From NCBI RefSeq assembly GCF_003334385.1, contig NZ_QOWN01000001.1: a stretch of 64,000 nt of DNA, one strand, 5' to 3'. This DNA is from Escherichia coli. Lineage in GTDB: Bacteria; Pseudomonadota; Gammaproteobacteria; Enterobacterales; Enterobacteriaceae. Made by a program: the position numbers. The first letter of the stretch is position 1. Each line of letters opens with the position of its first letter. This document shows, piece after piece, positions 33,001-42,000 of this stretch.

Positions 33001-36000
33001 GGCAACTTTTATGCGATGAACATGGTTTTACCCGGGAGCACTACAATCAGCTGAAGAAGTTCAGCCCGGAGACATTACGTGAAATTATTGCTGAAATAGC
33101 CAGCTGTCATCCATCAACCAGTGTATTGCTCAGGAATAAGTGGCTGACACCGCCGGAGGATATTCTGGAGCAGATTACCCGTGAATACGAACGAAGAATA
33201 CAAAACTGTCCATCGTTCAGGAGCGAGAAGGAAGCGGAATCCTGGTTAAATGAACTGTCTTTTGCTGTGATTGCTCCGCTATACCGTGTTGTCCCCGAAC
33301 AAACAGAACAGGTTGAGTCCTTTGTTCTGCAGCTTATTGCCGAGCAGGAGCGGGTTTGGGAGCTTATTTTAACCAATGATGGTTATTCATGGCATTGCGC
33401 ACTTTATGATATATTATTTCATCTGGTTTTACGAAATATGGAAGACCAGCCTGAACATCAGAGACAGCGAATAACAAAAATACTTAATGAGTCCGATACA
33501 AGACGGGTGGCAGAAGAGATTAAATTCCGGATTCAATATCTTCAGGATGAAGAACAAAAGAGAGTTTTAAGTGATCTGGTAAATGTCCTGATTTCAAAAA
33601 GATAAAACATGCCGGAGTAATTTTTCTATATGTTAATAAAACAGGTGCGTATTACCATGAAGAAGATCGGTGAGTAACCGTTATTGGATGATCTCCTTCC
33701 ATAAAAATACGCGCAATCTAACGGTTCGCTCTGTGCCAAAAAAAGATATTGCTCACAATATCAAGTTAATCATTCGGCCGTTGAACATTTCCATTGAAAA
33801 ATTTCTCAGTATAGAATATACCAATGTTGAGGGCATTCCTCTTACATCTCGAAGGATAACTATCATGGGTCTTAAACCAGGTCCAAAACCAATTGCTAAG
33901 TCGGTAGGAAAACCGGATCAACGCCGACGCGATAATAAAGATACTCCTGGCAATACTCCGGGACTAAAGCCAAGTAAGTCCACAGGTAAGTAAAAAAATA
34001 AGGGTATAAACAAGCATTTATACACTGACTATATATCCAGTCCACTGAAGGTGTTTCAGCAACCAGATGCTCGTTCTTTCTATATCATACGCCTTTGCCC
34101 CGTACCCTTTCGCAAGCAAAGACTCTGGTAAATACTCGTCATATTTATCCAGATCCTTATCAGGAACAACTGCAGCAAGCTCAAATTCTGAAGGTGCAAA
34201 ATGGCATCTGAATCGATCACGACCTGGCATGAGCGAGAGAAGAGGCCAGTGATACAAGGCGTCGTGTACTACGCGGATCATCGAGACGGGCATGTCCAAA
34301 CTGCTCGTTAGCCCATGAATAACAATCAGAAAGTACCATAACAGAGTCGAATAAAATGAAATATAAGAGAAGATCAACGGGTGAAGAAAAAGTTCAAAAA
34401 ATGGCTACCGGGGAGGAAGGAAAGTACCGGATGGAAAGAGCCCCCCCTAAAGCAGACTGACAGACATCACAAATCCCCGGGTGGGGACTTGTGTATAAGA
34501 GACAGGTCTTACAGGGGGAGCGTCCGTCTTTTTATCAACATCAGGCAATGACATAACATTATGAACAAGCGCACAAGTCTGATGGTTAAATTTTATAATG
34601 CTCCTTACTAAGACCGTATTTTTTCATTCTGAGATAGAGTTTTTTCCGTGGGATTTGTAAATATTCAGCAACCTCATTGATACGCCCCTGATGGATATTA
34701 AGCGCCTCTGTGATTATCTGTCGCTCAGCGTCCTCCACTCGTCTGTCAAGCGGTGTCGGGGTTCCGACGTGCATCAACGGATTTGCTGTTTCTGCCAGCG
34801 GTAATACTCCTACAGTAAATAGTTCTGCTGCATTGGCCAGCTCTCGCACATTATTTGGCCACATGCGGCGCATCATCTCTTTGAGCATCTCTTTTCCCAC
34901 TTCCGGAACAGGATGGTTAAGCCGTTGACATGCTTTACAAAGGTAATGGCGAAACAGTGGTTCAATATCGTCGGGGCGTTGAGTTAATGGCAGGCAAGCG
35001 ATTTGTGTCATTGCAAAGCAGTAATAGAGCTCCGCGATGATATGGTTGCTGGCGGCCAGCTCGACCAGCGAGGTGTCTCCAATACCAATCAGGCGAAAAG
35101 GTCTGTGTTCCTGGCTTTGTAACTGAACCAGATGGTACTGCTGTTCACGCGTCAGGTGTTCAGGATGGCTGAGCACTAATGTTCCCCCCTGAGCCAGCGC
35201 AATGAAATCATTAAGCTGTGGTGCATTGTCTGGTGTCAGCTCGCGGTAGACAAATTCGCCTTGTGCATTACGTCCAAATTGGTGCAGATAACGTGCACCG
35301 GTCATCCGTCCTGTGCCAGGGGCACCGTAGAGCCAGACGGCAATATCTGTCTCAGACAACTGCTGTAAACGTCGCCGATACTGATTTATCCATTCACTTC
35401 TCCCTATCAACTCCACCTGCAATGTCTGTTGGCAATACTGACGACGCGCAATGATTGATTGACGCTGGCGTAGTGCCTCTTCAACCAGAGAAAGCAATTT
35501 GCCGGGATCGACCGGTTTTTGCAAAAAATCCCACGCGCCTTTTTTCACCGCATCAACTGCCATTGGCACATCGCCGTGCCCGGTGATAAGCAGAATGGGG
35601 AGCTGTTGATCATCCTGGTGGAATAACATCATCAAATCGATACCAGAGCAGCCAGGCATACACACATCACTTAGCACAATGCCTGGCCAGTCTGGTTGTA
35701 TCCACGCCTGCGCCTCAAAAGGATTGTTACAGGCAAAAACACGATAGCCCGACTGTTCAAGTAACTGTGTGTAGGCGTCCAGCACGTCAGCATCATCATC
35801 AATCAGCAGAATCGAATATTCACTACTTAGCATCTTCCACATCCGTTAGTCTGAATTGCAGTACCACACAGGCATTCCTGGTCATCGTTGATGCCAGCCG
35901 CAATTCCCCTTTCATTTGCTCCATCAACGACACACAAATTGAAAGACCAATACCCAGTCCTACTTCTTTACTGGTGGTAAACGGCTTCAATAACGAAGGC

Positions 36001-39000: not shown

Positions 39001-42000
39001 GAGCCCTGACGGCCCCGACATCCATCAACAACAGTAAAAGAATCATGGTTTTGATGCCGATTTCGCACCAACTAAAGAATCGGTTTGTGATCCAGGTCAT
39101 AAATATTAATACACCGCAAAAATCGCATTGAGACAAAAATTACCCGTTTCAGACACTTCGTCTGATAACACGTCTGTTCAAAGAGACCGTTAATATATTA
39201 ATCAGAGATTACCCGATAATCAGCATGAGATTTGTTAATATCCGCACATGCTAACAACAAACCAGATAAAGCATAAATCTGCCCTGTCTATGCATCAATA
39301 AAATGGGTCAAAAACAGGCTTTGATTTTATTATTTTGTGTCAATTGTGACACATTTTTTCAGTTTGATATTTCATCTCAATTATATAACTCTCATTGTCA
39401 GAATACTCCTGATGTTCATATCAATATAAAATACAGGTGAAGACATGTTATCAATATTTAAAACGGGGCAAGCGGCGGATAGTGTTCCGGCGGAGAAAAT
39501 TCAGGTGACATATCGTCGCTATCGTATGCAGGCGTTACTTAGCGTATTTCTGGGGTATCTTGCATACTATATCGTGCGTAATAATTTCACCTTATCAACG
39601 CCTTATCTTAAAGAGCAATTAGATCTCAGCGCCACACAAATTGGCGTACTGAGTAGCTGTATGCTTATCGCCTATGGTATCAGCAAAGGAGTGATGAGTA
39701 GCCTTGCCGATAAAGCCAGTCCGAAAGTCTTTATGGCGTGTGGGCTGGTGTTATGTGCCATCGTTAACGTTGGCCTGGGATTCAGCACCGCATTCTGGAT
39801 TTTTGCGGCATTGGTTATTCTGAATGGTCTTTTCCAGGGAATGGGCGTTGGTCCTTCTTTCATCACTATTGCTAACTGGTTCCCTCGCCGGGAGCGTGGT
39901 CGGGTTGGTGCTTTCTGGAATATCTCTCATAACATCGGTGGTGGTATTGTTGCACCGATTGTTGGTGCCGCTTTTGCCCTACTCGGCAGCGAGCACTGGC
40001 AAAGTGCGAGTTATATCGTTCCGGCCTGCGTGGCCATCGTTTTTGCGGTAATTGTGCTGATTCTCGGTAAAGGTTCCCCACATCAGGAAGGTCTACCCTC
40101 TCTGGAAGAGATGATGCCGGAAGAAAAAGTCGTCCTGAATACCCGACAGACGGTAAAAGCACCAGAAAACATGAGCGCCTTTCAGATTTTCTGCACTTAT
40201 GTATTACGCAATAAAAATGCCTGGTATGTCTCACTGGTTGACGTATTTGTATACATGGTGCGCTTCGGGATGATTAGCTGGTTGCCTATTTATCTGCTGA
40301 CGGTGAAACATTTTTCAAAAGAACAAATGAGCGTCGCATTTTTATTTTTTGAATGGGCCGCGATCCCTTCCACGCTACTTGCCGGTTGGTTGTCAGACAA
40401 ACTGTTTAAAGGGCGTCGTATGCCATTGGCGATGATTTGTATGGCGCTGATTTTCATTTGCCTGATTGGCTACTGGAAAAGTGAATCGTTGTTTATGGTG
40501 ACAATTTTTGCTGCCATTGTTGGTTGTCTGATTTACGTTCCACAATTTCTGGCTTCCGTTCAGACTATGGAGATCGTGCCCAGCTTTGCTGTTGGCTCCG
40601 CGGTAGGTTTACGTGGTTTTATGAGCTATATCTTCGGTGCATCTCTGGGCACCAGCCTGTTTGGTATTATGGTCGATCATATTGGCTGGCATGGCGGATT
40701 TTATCTTCTTGGCTGCGGTATTATTTGTTGCATCATTTTTTGCTGGTTATCACATCGTGGTGCAATTGAACTTGAACGTCACAGAGCCGCATATATAAAA
40801 GAGCACTAATTACCTTCCCCAGGGTCGTTTCCCTGGGGAGTGGAGCATATTATGATTTATAAGATATCTGGCAATCAGAGATTAATATGGAAATTTTATA
40901 AAACTGATGACAATAAATGGAGATGGTATTGTCATGAGAAAAATGGATATCTTTTGTCTCAATCAGATAACGCATATAATTCGCAATTGTTATGCATTGA
41001 AAATGCTAAAAAACAGGGGTACTCAGACGAATCAGTCTTGCCACTTTTTCTACATATTTCCTACATTCAGGAAAAAGGCTGGAAATGGTATCAATGTTAT
41101 GGCTGTGGATATATCGTAAAACAAGCATCTGTTTTCTTTCCGACATACCAAGCATGTATCATTGATGCTGAACAAGAATGTATTGGTATACTAGTTCAAC
41201 TGTCTGAAAAAACTTGAGCCACCCCTTGAAATGCCAAACAGTGGATGTATCTTAAGTTAACGTTACCCGCTGACGTCGATATTCTCGCGGAGAGCGATAA
41301 CCCAACGCACTGTGCGGATGGTTTTCATTGTAATGCTCGATCGCTACTGCAAGGTTATGCACTGCCGTTCTTACATTCGGTTTCGGCATGAACGCGATGT
41401 AGTCTTCCTTCATCGTTTTCACGAACCGTCTGCCATTCCATTACTCTGAGGACTGCTGACTGCCGTCGTGCAGGGCTCCAGATTCAGCTCTCTGGCGAAC
41501 TGCCGTGTTTCATGCGCTCTGTACGCTGAACCGTTATCTGTCAGCCACTGGATGGGCTCTTCCGGCACTTTATCGCCAAAGCCTTTTTCTATCGCTCCTG
41601 ACATCACATCCTGTACTGTCGCTTTATCGTAACCTCCCGTACTGGCTGCCCAGTCGATGGCTTCACGATCACAACAGTCCAGGGCGAACGTAACCCGGAC
41701 TTTTTCGCCATCATCACAACCGAACTCGAAGCCATCAGAACACCAACGCTGGTCGCTTTCCTTCACCGATATTCGGCCTTTATGTTCCCGCTGCAGCCGT
41801 GATGGTTTGTCATGTAACAACAACAGGCTGTTTTCGCTCATTATTCGGTAAACGCGCTTTGCATTCACGAACGGCAAGCCTTCATTTCGGGACTGCCGTC
41901 TGAGTATCGCCCAGACACGGCGATACCCATATGCTGGCATATCGCCAATGATATCCAGGATGCGCGATAAGACTTCTGCATCCGCAGCCTCATCGCGTCT

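What the first reader, a model, noticed from the sequence alone, without database searches (positions are those of the whole stretch)
34586..40809. Salmonella-type pgtP/pgtCBA phosphoglycerate system carried in the same window as its core paralog uhpT
The island supplies a second organophosphate:Pi antiporter with its own three-component sigma-54-type regulatory system, flanked by a degenerate IS2-like element, consistent with horizontal acquisition of a metabolic fitness trait. A near-palindrome (39,335-39,353) in the divergent promoter region is a candidate operator.
Basis: partly seen in the sequence, partly recalled or inferred. Interest (0 to 1): 0.4.

Follow-up and report, generated by a model that had tools for sequence, protein, structure and literature searches.

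The report
Known phosphoglycerate uptake genes in UPEC island

Summary
pgtA (34586-35833, -), pgtB (35823-37832, -), pgtC (37829-39046, possibly to 39100, -) and divergent pgtP (39445-40809, +) are intact. The segment is 99.9 % identical to the RefSeq-annotated pgt locus of CFT073 and UPEC132, so the locus is already known; papers list pgtABCP in the pheU, pheV and other ExPEC islands. Here it lies in a 49.3-kb island at selC, bounded by exact 24-nt direct repeats. uhpT is in the window but cut by its left edge.

Two corrections to the interpretation.
1. "Sigma-54-type" holds only by ancestry. PgtA, and nearly all of 26 orthologs examined, has Arg for the Walker A Lys. All lack the ~20-residue GAFTGA segment and the Walker B Asp-Glu. 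No -24/-12 promoter is present or conserved.
2. "Salmonella-type" means ortholog, not donor. DNA identity is 72-78 % to Citrobacter, Klebsiella and Salmonella alike.

The palindrome (39336-39353) is real. It is the local copy of TGnGTCA-N4-TGACnCA, found in 48 of 55 pgtABC-linked pgtP upstream regions (0.25 expected) and in 0 of 23 pgtP loci without pgtABC. It sits a fixed distance upstream of a conserved sigma-70-like -35/-10 pair. Best reading: a PgtA binding site. A conserved CRP-like motif at the pgtC start remains unexplained.

The parts
34586..35833 (-). pgtA: response regulator (receiver + degenerate AAA+ + Fis-type HTH), 415 aa. The ORF runs 3 codons further, to 35842.
   Evidence: NCBIfam NF047793 scores 730 bits against a cut-off of 650. 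Pfam finds Response_reg, Sigma54_activ_2, AAA_lid_14 and HTH_8. PDB 3N70 is identical to residues 143-287 of the 418-aa ORF translation (140-284 in RefSeq numbering). The P-loop is GAPGTGR (170-176), there is no GAFTGA, and Walker B reads SH. The receiver has Asp12-14, Asp56 and Lys106.
35823..37832 (-). pgtB: sensor histidine kinase, 669 aa
   Evidence: NCBIfam NF047794 scores 1067.6 bits against a cut-off of 1000. Pfam finds HAMP, HisKA and HATPase_c. The H-box LAHEINQPL is present, and two hydrophobic segments (~15-41 and 335-363) flank a ~290-aa loop.
37829..39046 (-). pgtC: solute-binding-protein-like co-sensor, RefSeq start at 39046. A conserved in-frame ATG at 39100 would add 18 N-terminal residues. 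The longest ORF starts at TTG 39136.
   Evidence: Pfam SBP_bac_6 E = 4e-28 and SBP_bac_11 E = 1.8e-16. RefSeq names it PgtC.
39087..39102 (.). Conserved CRP-like motif TGTGATCCAGGTCATA (9 of 10 core positions of TGTGA-N6-TCACA) at the pgtC translation start. Role unexplained.
   Evidence: TGTGA-N6-TCA[AT]A occurs in 50 of 55 orthologous intergenic regions against 0.09 expected. The half-sites are invariant and the spacer varies. In distant genera it lies outside the ORF or has no start codon at that position.
39128..39151 (-). Conserved block (- strand: TGAAACGGGTAATTTTTGTCTCAA) upstream of pgtC. Candidate pgtC promoter or 5'UTR element.
   Evidence: Conserved across the close genera, and its core TTTGTCTCAA extends to Providencia and Morganella.
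39233..39248 (-). Near-invariant block, - strand TGTGC-GGATAT-TAACA (8 of 10 CRP core positions). Candidate class II CRP site for a distal pgtC promoter.
   Evidence: Found as an 8/10 match in 19 of the 55 orthologous loci, all among the 29 with PgtP >= 85 % identity; not recognisable in the distant genera. The position relative to a conserved GGTAATCT (39205-39212) is inferred from sequence, not tested.
39304..39310 (+). Upstream half-site TGGGTCA. Remnant of a second dyad about 31 bp upstream of the main one.
   Evidence: Conserved as G(A/G)GTCAAA in the close genera, and a full dyad TGnGTCA-N3-TGACnC at the same position in Providencia-type loci.
39336..39353 (.). The palindrome TGTGTCA-ATTG-TGACACA. 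Proposed PgtA binding site (upstream activating sequence of pgtP).
   Evidence: Perfect 7-4-7 inverted repeat. The GTCA-N4-TGAC core is in 48 of 55 pgtABC-linked loci against 0.25 expected, at -103 to -128 from the pgtP ATG in most. It is in 0 of 23 pgtP loci lacking pgtABC. Twelve of 14 arm positions are invariant or nearly so.
39364..39392 (+). Predicted sigma-70-type pgtP core promoter: -35 TTGATA (39364-39369), 17-bp spacer, -10 AACTCT (39387-39392). Predicted transcription start ~39399.
   Evidence: TTG(A) and an A2/T6 hexamer (CACTCT, AACTCT or CATGAT) sit at a fixed distance from the palindrome across genera. This is an inference; no start site was mapped.
39445..40809 (+). pgtP: phosphoglycerate/PEP:phosphate antiporter (MFS, OPA family), 454 aa
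   Evidence: NCBIfam NF047787 scores 884.4 bits against a cut-off of 750. It aligns full length at 88-91 % identity to its closest Enterobacteriaceae orthologs and 75-87 % to the rest of the Enterobacterales.
40852..41217 (+). Hypothetical 121-aa ORF downstream of pgtP. Not part of the conserved pgt module.
   Evidence: No NCBIfam or PHROGs hit. Similarity to other genera stops at 40787.
41252..42486 (-). Degenerate IS2-like (IS3-family) element, right flank
   Evidence: IS2 TnpA and TnpB are the best hits, both below cut-off: 160.6 against 229 and 320.6 against 597. RefSeq marks it 'frameshifted'.
34232..34339 (-). Transposase N-terminal fragment, left flank
   Evidence: RefSeq pseudogene 'transposase DNA-binding-containing protein, incomplete'.
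10679..60051 (.). The 49.3-kb selC-inserted pathogenicity island that carries pgt. It is bounded by 24-nt direct repeats at 10679-10702 and 60028-60051, with the integrase at 58544-59728 and tRNA-Sec at 60028-60122.
   Evidence: Gene content comes from collinear UPEC132.
2..1219 (+). uhpT, the core paralog. Its 5' end is cut by the window edge.
   Evidence: NF007107 scores 724.6 bits and matches model positions 59-467. It is 34 % identical to PgtP.

Best explanation
The region is an intact copy of the phosphoglycerate transport system PgtP/PgtCBA, on a selC-inserted pathogenicity island of an ExPEC/UPEC-type E. coli.

From Salmonella work: PgtP exchanges external 2-phosphoglycerate, 3-phosphoglycerate or PEP for internal phosphate. 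The solute-binding-protein-like PgtC and the membrane kinase PgtB sense external substrate and phosphorylate PgtA.

Inferred here: PgtA~P binds the conserved dyad TGnGTCA-N4-TGACnCA at 39336-39353, plus an upstream half-site at 39304-39310. The dyad is centred about 55 bp upstream of the predicted pgtP transcription start. From there PgtA activates a weak sigma-70-type promoter (-35 TTGATA, -10 AACTCT).

PgtA descends from NtrC, but its AAA+ module has lost the sigma-54 contact loop and the ATPase catalytic residues. It therefore cannot act as a sigma-54 enhancer-binding protein. The central domain probably serves only for oligomerisation or nucleotide binding.

cAMP-CRP probably also feeds into the divergent control region through conserved CRP-like motifs. 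That step is the least certain.
For: Identity and integrity:
- Equivalog scores are above cut-off for PgtA, PgtB and PgtP.
- The proteins align full length to orthologs in more than 40 Enterobacterales loci with the same gene order.
- The segment is 99.9 % identical to the annotated CFT073 and UPEC132 loci.
- The kinase H-box and the receiver Asp56 and Lys106 are present.
- PgtA carries Glu141, Gly173 and His223, the functional S. Typhimurium residues. Gly173Asp inactivates S. Typhi PgtA (bioRxiv 10.1101/2024.02.14.580360).

Sigma-54 independence:
- The alignment with K-12 NtrC and ZraR shows K->R in Walker A in nearly all of 26 orthologs (the Orbaceae ortholog keeps Lys).
- The same alignment shows that all lack ~20 residues including ESELFGHEKGAFTGA.
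- Walker B DE is replaced by SH, KN or RN in all.
- Pfam PF00158 matches only model positions 1-55 of 168.
- The best full-length PDB relative is NtrX.
- No TGGCAC-N5-TTGCW match within 3 mismatches lies in 39137-39444, and none is conserved in 55 orthologous regions.
- The main texts of two Salmonella sigma-54 regulon papers never mention pgt.

Operator:
- The core is in 48 of 55 regions against 0.25 expected.
- It is in 0 of 23 loci lacking pgtABC.
- A second dyad lies ~31 bp upstream in distant genera, and -35/-10-like elements keep a fixed distance from the dyad.

CRP input: conserved CRP-like motifs. A crp mutant lowers pgtP expression in Salmonella (PMC7873081).
Against: - Nothing here shows expression or transport in E. 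coli, and I found no paper testing the E. coli system.
- No transcription start site is mapped, so the promoter and the -55 position are predictions. The -10 hexamer is weak.
- No binding data link PgtA to the dyad. Co-occurrence with pgtABC would also fit any other factor that travels with the system.
- The E. coli-group loci keep only half of the upstream dyad.
- An older view, cited in a review, calls PgtA a 'derepressor'.
- VrpA is reported to bind the Salmonella pgtP promoter. Its site is unknown and could be one of the conserved blocks.
- Gly173 in the degenerate P-loop is functionally essential, so the AAA+ module is not inert.
Confidence: 0.8

Rival explanations
1. PgtA is a genuine sigma-54 enhancer-binding protein and pgtP has a sigma-54 promoter.
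For: PgtA has NtrC-family architecture, and Pfam calls its central domain a 'Sigma-54 interaction domain' (PF14532). NCBIfam ranks NtrC, NtrX and AtoC next after PgtA. RefSeq labels a disrupted pgtA copy 'sigma-54-dependent transcriptional regulator' (H43). [quoted passage not shown]
Against: GAFTGA is deleted and Walker B DE replaced in all 26 orthologs, and the Walker A Lys is replaced in nearly all. There is no -24/-12 match within 3 mismatches in the intergenic region. GG-N10-GC cores exist (one on the + strand, three on the - strand); the + strand core fits the consensus at only 5 of 11 positions and falls on the PgtA half-site. No sigma-54 match is conserved across 55 orthologous regions. 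pgt is absent from the main texts of two Salmonella sigma-54 regulon papers.
Confidence: 0.05
2. The palindrome is a cAMP-CRP site rather than a PgtA site.
For: In this window TGTGT-CAATTG-TGACA matches 8 of 10 CRP core positions with the correct 6-bp spacing. pgtP expression depends on crp in Salmonella, and a review states that it requires cAMP-CRP.
Against: In most orthologs position 3 is A or G (TGAGT..., 41 of 48), which gives 7 of 10 or fewer. The invariant positions (GTCA/TGAC, 4-bp spacer) are not those of CRP. The element is absent from all 23 pgtP loci without pgtABC. Better conserved CRP-like motifs lie elsewhere in the region.
Confidence: 0.07
3. The palindrome plus the following T-run is an RNA hairpin: an intrinsic terminator or attenuator in a long pgtP leader.
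For: The terminator scan picks it up (7-bp stem, 4-nt loop, TTTTTT). As RNA it folds at -8.1 kcal/mol, z = -2.95.
Against: The T-run is not conserved; orthologs read CATTTCGTC or CATTTCATC. The stem bases are invariant rather than covarying. The one variable pair (positions 3 and 16) varies on both sides, and in most orthologs aligned it is an A-A mismatch. An unpaired half-site copy lies upstream. No + strand gene lies upstream to terminate. Conserved -35/-10-like elements lie downstream of it, not upstream.
Confidence: 0.04
4. The locus is a silent passenger in E. coli: intact reading frames but no working induction, for example because the upstream half-dyad is lost or host factors are missing.
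For: No functional data exist for the E. coli system. S. Typhi shows that one substitution can silence an apparently intact system. The flanks are IS debris. Some E. coli genomes carry IS-disrupted copies (H38, H43, H44).
Against: All four ORFs are full length, with catalytic residues present. PgtA has the functional residues at the three positions that differ in S. Typhi. Of the 465 carrier genomes, 431 keep at least 80 % of the module at 98-100 % identity. The same half-dyad arrangement is shared by the aligned close genera, including Salmonella diarizonae. Salmonella is the genus in which the system has been shown to work.
Confidence: 0.12

Closest known systems
Salmonella enterica PgtP/PgtCBA phosphoglycerate transport system (Hong laboratory, 1986-1995; Varadhachary & Maloney 1991, as cited in PMC9306846)
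   Same: The same four proteins, all full length, and the same divergent pgtCBA/pgtP layout. The same control-region blocks occur, including the dyad and the CRP-like motifs (seen in S. diarizonae L025). PgtA has the functional residues at positions 141, 173 and 223.
   Different: Only 81-91 % protein identity and ~75 % DNA identity to S. diarizonae. That is no closer than to Citrobacter or Klebsiella. In E. coli the system is accessory and sits on tRNA-linked islands between IS remnants. S. enterica proper was not among the retrieved loci.
pgtABCP of E. coli CFT073 (pheU island), 536 and S79EC (pheV island), and APEC IMT5155 PAI I
   Same: 99.9 % DNA identity to CFT073 over 8.5 kb, including both IS remnants. 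The surrounding modules are the same (ibr, ireA, pap, tia), as described for intP4.3-type pheV islands.
   Different: In this window the composite island is inserted at selC rather than pheU or pheV. UPEC132 and N50 share the selC arrangement.
NtrC-family regulators that work without sigma-54: NtrX, VpsR, TyrR, Rhodobacter capsulatus NtrC (from my own knowledge of the field)
   Same: A receiver or sensory domain, an AAA+-like core without GAFTGA, and a Fis-type HTH. NtrX (5m7n) is the best full-length PDB match, and VpsR (7v2b) is also hit.
   Different: PgtA has additionally lost the Walker A Lys and the Walker B Asp-Glu. Its sigma-70 dependence is inferred here and not demonstrated.
UhpABC/UhpT hexose-phosphate system, the core paralog in the same window
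   Same: An OPA-family antiporter induced by external substrate through a membrane sensor, a kinase and a response regulator. PgtP and UhpT are 34 % identical.
   Different: The Uhp sensor UhpC is itself a transporter homolog and UhpA is a NarL/FixJ-type regulator (established knowledge). In Pgt the co-sensor is a solute-binding-protein homolog and the regulator is NtrC-type.
NtrC enhancer at glnAp2: two dyads about three helical turns apart (established knowledge)
   Same: A 7-nt inverted repeat with a short spacer, recognised by a Fis-type HTH dimer. In distant genera there are tandem dyads ~31 bp apart.
   Different: The sites lie next to a sigma-70-like -35 element, about 22 bp centre to centre. 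They do not lie >100 bp upstream of a -24/-12 promoter.

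Membership tests
PgtP/PgtCBA phosphoglycerate transport system | OPA-family MFS antiporter of the PgtP equivalog group | tested here: met
   NF047787 scores 884.4 bits against a cut-off of 750, over residues 1-448.
PgtP/PgtCBA phosphoglycerate transport system | Cognate PgtB kinase and PgtA regulator | tested here: met
   NF047794 scores 1067.6 against 1000, and NF047793 scores 730 against 650.
PgtP/PgtCBA phosphoglycerate transport system | PgtC, a solute-binding-protein-like third regulatory component | tested here: met
   SBP_bac_6 and SBP_bac_11 domains. It shows 75-85 % identity to the gene in the same position in the closest Enterobacteriaceae loci. There is no dedicated NCBIfam model, and the start codon is ambiguous.
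PgtP/PgtCBA phosphoglycerate transport system | Gene order pgtA-pgtB-pgtC divergent from pgtP, with a shared control region | tested here: met
PgtP/PgtCBA phosphoglycerate transport system | Induction by external 2PG, 3PG or PEP, and exchange of these for phosphate | not testable with these tools
   Requires growth, uptake or reporter assays. None was found for E. coli in the literature held.
Sigma-54-dependent enhancer-binding proteins (bEBPs) | GAFTGA loop (L1) that contacts sigma-54 | tested here: not met
   Absent. About 20 residues are deleted relative to NtrC and ZraR, in all 26 orthologs examined. PF00158 matches only model positions 1-55 of 168.
Sigma-54-dependent enhancer-binding proteins (bEBPs) | Catalytic Walker A Lys and Walker B Asp-Glu | tested here: not met
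   GAPGTGR replaces GxxGxGK, and VLSHPE replaces FLDEIG.
Sigma-54-dependent enhancer-binding proteins (bEBPs) | Target promoter of the -24 GG / -12 GC type | tested here: not met
   No match within 3 mismatches in 39137-39444. None is conserved in orthologs.
Sigma-54-dependent enhancer-binding proteins (bEBPs) | Receiver domain and C-terminal Fis-type HTH (NtrC subfamily architecture) | tested here: met
   Response_reg residues 11-120 and HTH_8 residues 369-409.
tRNA-linked pathogenicity/genomic island | Insertion at the 3' end of a tRNA gene, an adjacent tyrosine integrase and flanking direct repeats | tested here: met
   tRNA-Sec at 60028-60122. The integrase is at 58544-59728. Exact 24-nt repeats lie at 10679-10702 and 60028-60051.
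IS2 (IS3 family) insertion sequence | Intact orfA/orfB with a programmed frameshift | tested here: not met
Both ORF fragments score below the IS2 cut-offs, and orfB is 237 aa against a 301-position model. RefSeq marks it as a frameshifted pseudogene.
cAMP-CRP binding site | TGTGA-N6-TCACA-like dyad at an activating position (about -41.5, -61.5 and so on) | tested here: inconclusive
   The palindrome matches 8/10 here but fewer in most orthologs. The motif at 39087-39102 matches 9/10 and is conserved in 50 of 55 regions, but it sits at the pgtC start codon. The block at 39233-39248 matches 8/10 with plausible class II geometry, relative to a -10 that is only predicted. No position weight matrix or binding data were available.

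The most novel reading that the evidence does not exclude
The whole PgtA family may be an NtrC-type response regulator that has permanently left the sigma-54 system. It would be ATPase-dead and lack GAFTGA. It would drive a sigma-70 promoter from tandem TGnGTCA-N3/4-TGACnCA dyads next to the -35 element. A strongly conserved CRP-like site sits over the pgtC translation start and would add a second, unusual layer of control. I found no paper in the held library that states this, and a 2024 study still interprets PgtA through sigma-54. Older subscription literature, which I could not read, may already cover parts of it.
Probability: 0.4. Interest if true: 0.35.

Novelty: already known. Interest (0 to 1): 0.2.

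Why it matters
The locus itself adds nothing new. It is a catalogued accessory metabolic module of ExPEC islands, present in about 8-9 % of complete E. coli genomes.

It could matter for pathogen physiology. In Salmonella, PgtP-mediated uptake of host 3-phosphoglycerate supports growth in macrophages (PMC7873081). The equivalent has not been tested in UPEC, APEC or AIEC, which carry the module beside adhesin and iron-uptake genes.

The useful by-products are two:
- A correction: PgtA should not be treated or annotated as sigma-54-dependent.
- A concrete, testable map of the control region: the dyad, a half-site, a predicted sigma-70 promoter and CRP-like motifs.

Tried and rejected
- Sigma-54 promoter search. 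I searched the whole window for TGGCAC-N5-TTGCW with up to 3 mismatches and found nothing in the pgt control region. GG-N10-GC cores exist (one on the + strand, three on the - strand), but none came within 3 mismatches. The + strand core fits the consensus poorly and is not conserved.
- First tblastn mapping of PgtA. It used coordinates one base off and so a wrong reading frame. Those PgtA identities are discarded and were redone.
- Primary Salmonella paper. Niu et al. 1995 (PMC177176) is not held. I therefore have no published pgtP transcription start or deletion analysis.
- Literature searches. 'PgtA' with 'GAFTGA' found nothing. 'PgtA' with 'RpoN' found only incidental mentions.
- A new pgtC start. 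I considered that the conserved sequence at 39083-39105 is simply the true N-terminal coding sequence of PgtC. I rejected that as the sole explanation, because in distant genera the motif lies outside the ORF or has no start codon at that position. The start codon stays ambiguous.
- Flanking ORFs. PHROGs and NCBIfam gave nothing for the hypothetical ORFs beside pgt. The PADLOC attempt failed on my coordinate error and was not repeated.
- The simple sigma-70 and terminator scan gave counts near shuffle expectation and did not identify the pgtP promoter.
- Structure prediction and fold searches were not run. The central domain already has a crystal structure (3N70).

Full report
**1. What is there**

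The window is a uropathogenic-type E. coli chromosome segment. Core genes occupy the left end: uhpT (5' end cut by the window edge, positions 2-1219), adeD, nepI, nlpA, yicL and setC. On the right are tRNA-Sec (60028-60122, - strand) and yicJ.

Between them lies an island bounded by exact 24-nt direct repeats of the selC 3' end, at 10679-10702 and 60028-60051. A tyrosine integrase sits next to selC at 58544-59728. Collinear strains UPEC132 and N50 show the island's content: a CP4/yee-type module, ireA, ibr-like genes, pgt, a pap operon with papG-II, tia and a phosphoethanolamine transferase. CFT073 has the same 8.5 kb around pgt at 99.9 % identity, but in its pheU island. The same module set is described for one class of pheV islands (PMC11537424).

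**2. The four genes**

- pgtA lies at 34586-35833 (-), pgtB at 35823-37832 (-), pgtC at 37829-39046 (-) and pgtP at 39445-40809 (+).
- NCBIfam equivalog models for PgtA, PgtB and PgtP score above their curated cut-offs.
- PgtB has two membrane segments around a ~290-residue loop, then HAMP, HisKA (H-box LAHEINQPL) and HATPase_c.
- PgtC is a solute-binding-protein homolog.
- PgtA has an intact receiver (Asp12-14, Asp56, Lys106), a central AAA+-like domain and a Fis-type HTH.
- All four align full length to orthologs in more than 40 Enterobacterales loci with the same gene order.
- PgtA carries the functional S. Typhimurium residues at the three positions that differ in the inactive S. Typhi protein (bioRxiv 10.1101/2024.02.14.580360).

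I see no inactivating mutation.

**3. Known or new**

The locus is already known. RefSeq annotates the locus as pgtA, pgtB, pgtC and pgtP. PDB entry 3N70 is the identical central domain of this PgtA. Papers list pgtABCP in the islands of CFT073, 536, IMT5155, AIEC and mastitis strains.

The module occurs in 465 of 5426 complete E. coli genomes. In 431 of them at least 80 % of it is present. There are two allele groups, at least 99 % and about 98.7 % identical, and 10 of the matching places are on plasmids. I found no functional test of the E. coli system.

**4. Origin**

DNA similarity to other genera covers only 34584-40787, exactly the four genes. It is 72-78 % to Citrobacter, Klebsiella, Pseudocitrobacter, Serratia marcescens, Mixta and Salmonella diarizonae alike. 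At protein level Citrobacter amalonaticus (PgtA 86 %, B 83 %, C 85 %, P 91 %) and Klebsiella are marginally closer than S. diarizonae (81, 82, 83, 91 %).

"Salmonella-type" is therefore correct as orthology and not as provenance. No close donor is among the species representatives searched. The flanks are a transposase fragment on the left and, on the right, an unrelated small ORF and a frameshifted IS2-like element. Base composition is unremarkable: 47.6 % G+C against 49-50 % for the adjacent core.

**5. The sigma-54 claim**

PgtA belongs to the NtrC lineage, but its central domain is degenerate.

- In an alignment with K-12 NtrC and ZraR, nearly all of 26 PgtA orthologs have GxxGxGR in place of the Walker A GxxGxGK (the Orbaceae ortholog keeps Lys).
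- All lack about 20 residues that include ESELFGHEKGAFTGA.
- All have SH, KN or RN where Walker B has Asp-Glu, and all lack a further ~9 residues before the conserved "VDVR".
- Pfam's canonical sigma-54 interaction model matches only its first 55 positions.
- The best full-length structural relative by sequence is NtrX. To my knowledge NtrX also lacks GAFTGA.
- On the DNA side, no TGGCAC-N5-TTGCW match within 3 mismatches lies between pgtC and pgtP.
- GG-N10-GC cores exist (one on the + strand, three on the - strand). The + strand core matches only 5 of 11 consensus positions and overlaps a PgtA half-site.
- No sigma-54 match is conserved across 55 orthologous regions.
- The main texts of two papers on the Salmonella sigma-54 regulon and its 13 activators never mention pgt.

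I conclude that PgtA cannot act as a sigma-54 activator. Gly173, whose change to Asp silences S. Typhi PgtA, is the fourth residue of the degenerate P-loop. The module therefore still matters, perhaps for nucleotide binding or oligomerisation.

**6. The palindrome**

TGTGTCA-ATTG-TGACACA lies at 39336-39353.

- The core GTCA-N4-TGAC is present in 48 of 55 pgtC-pgtP intergenic regions, where shuffles predict 0.25.
- It sits 103-128 bp upstream of the pgtP ATG in most of them, and it is also found in a beta-proteobacterium.
- The profile is T-G-n-G-T-C-A-N4-T-G-A-C-n-C-A, with 12 of 14 arm positions invariant or nearly so.
- It is absent from all 23 pgtP loci (Bacillus, Paenibacillus, Veillonella and others) that lack pgtABC.
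- In Providencia-type loci a second full dyad with a 3-nt spacer lies ~31 bp upstream. In the E. coli group only its left half remains, at 39304-39310.
- A TTG(A) lies 10-11 bp downstream of the palindrome. After a constant 17-bp spacer comes a hexamer with A at position 2 and T at position 6. It reads AACTCT here, CACTCT in most Enterobacteriaceae and CATGAT in Providencia and Morganella.

This is the layout of a weak, activator-dependent sigma-70 promoter. It puts the dyad centre near -55 and predicts a start near 39399.

The hairpin reading is unlikely. The following T-run is not conserved. The stem is invariant rather than covarying. The one variable pair is an A-A mismatch in most orthologs aligned.

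The CRP reading of the palindrome is also unlikely. The 8/10 match in E. coli falls to 7/10 or fewer in most orthologs, and the invariant bases are not CRP's.

**7. Other conserved elements**

- TGTGATCCAGGTCATA (39087-39102) is a 9/10 CRP-core match. The pattern TGTGA-N6-TCA[AT]A is present in 50 of 55 regions against 0.09 expected, with invariant halves and a variable spacer. It overlaps a conserved in-frame ATG at 39100 in the E. coli, Citrobacter, Klebsiella and Salmonella group. In Providencia, Morganella, Yersinia, Edwardsiella and Pectobacterium it lies outside the ORF or without a start codon at that position, 18-36 nt upstream of the nearest in-frame ATG. It is therefore a cis-element and not merely coding sequence. 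Its position is too close to the start codon for a standard activating CRP site. I leave it unexplained.
- TGTGC-GGATAT-TAACA (39233-39248, - strand) is nearly invariant where it is found: 19 of the 55 orthologous loci, all among the close genera.
- GGGTAA-n-TTTTGTCTCAA (39128-39146, - strand) is conserved out to Providencia, with a second GGGTAAT copy at 39205-39212. If TAATCT there is a -10, the TGTGC block is centred near -42, which is class II CRP geometry. That is inference only.
- A crp mutant lowers pgtP expression in Salmonella, and the authors attribute this to VrpA (PMC7873081). A review states that pgtP requires cAMP-CRP (PMC9306846).

**8. Verdict**

The interpretation needs two corrections: it is not mechanistically sigma-54-type, and it is not specifically of Salmonella origin. 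The palindrome is upheld and sharpened into a family-wide operator. Interest is low for the locus itself. A modest residual interest lies in the sigma-54-independent nature of PgtA and in the conserved CRP-like site at the pgtC start.

Noticed in passing
window 10679-10702 and 60028-60051 (island 10703-60027): The composite ExPEC island (ireA, ibr, pgt, pap/papG-II, tia) is inserted at selC here, bounded by exact 24-nt repeats. CFT073 carries the same segment at pheU, and the literature describes the same module set at pheV. So the same cargo sits at three different tRNA sites.
   Followed up: partly
window 39087-39102: A CRP-like motif, TGTGA-N6-TCA(T/A)A, is conserved in 50 of 55 orthologous loci (0.09 expected). 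It sits on or just upstream of the pgtC start codon, which is an odd place for an activating CRP site.
   Followed up: partly
window 39046 / 39100 / 39136 (- strand): The pgtC start codon is ambiguous. The RefSeq start at 39046 gives MILLLLLM... with no charged n-region. A conserved in-frame ATG at 39100 adds MTWITNRFFSWCEIGIKT. Orthologs in other genera also appear to have 12-18 residues ahead of the hydrophobic core.
   Followed up: partly
L048 (E. coli SCPM-O-B-8794), L050 (E. whittamii), L051 (Escherichia sp. E1V33), L049 (Citrobacter sp. R56): A second, divergent pgt cluster type exists in Escherichia (PgtP 75 %, PgtB 48-49 %, PgtC 54-56 % identity to the island copy). In the three Escherichia loci (L048, L050, L051) the intergenic region is longer and the dyad lies at -167; L049 has neither feature.
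   Followed up: no
L052-L081 (Bacillus, Paenibacillus, Brevibacillus, Veillonella, Megasphaera and others): PgtP homologs at 60-71 % identity occur in Firmicutes and Negativicutes. They have no pgtABC and no dyad, so they must be regulated differently.
   Followed up: no
window 34586-35833; PDB 3N70: The central domain of exactly this PgtA has a deposited crystal structure labelled only 'Transport activator'. It could show directly what replaces the GAFTGA loop and whether a nucleotide can bind.
   Followed up: no
records H38, H43 and H44: Some E. coli genomes carry pgt copies interrupted by IS elements (IS2 or another IS3-family element inside pgtA). RefSeq then labels the fragments 'sigma-54-dependent transcriptional regulator' or 'AAA-type ATPase lid domain-containing protein'. 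Ten of the matching places are on plasmids.
   Followed up: no
window 30730-32510 (PAPS-reductase-like and IbrB-like ORFs) and 28296-29756 (ATP-dependent nuclease): Upstream of pgt lie an ibrA/ibrB-like pair (ibrB-like is frameshifted in CFT073 and UPEC132) and an ATP-dependent nuclease gene. I did not examine them.
   Followed up: no
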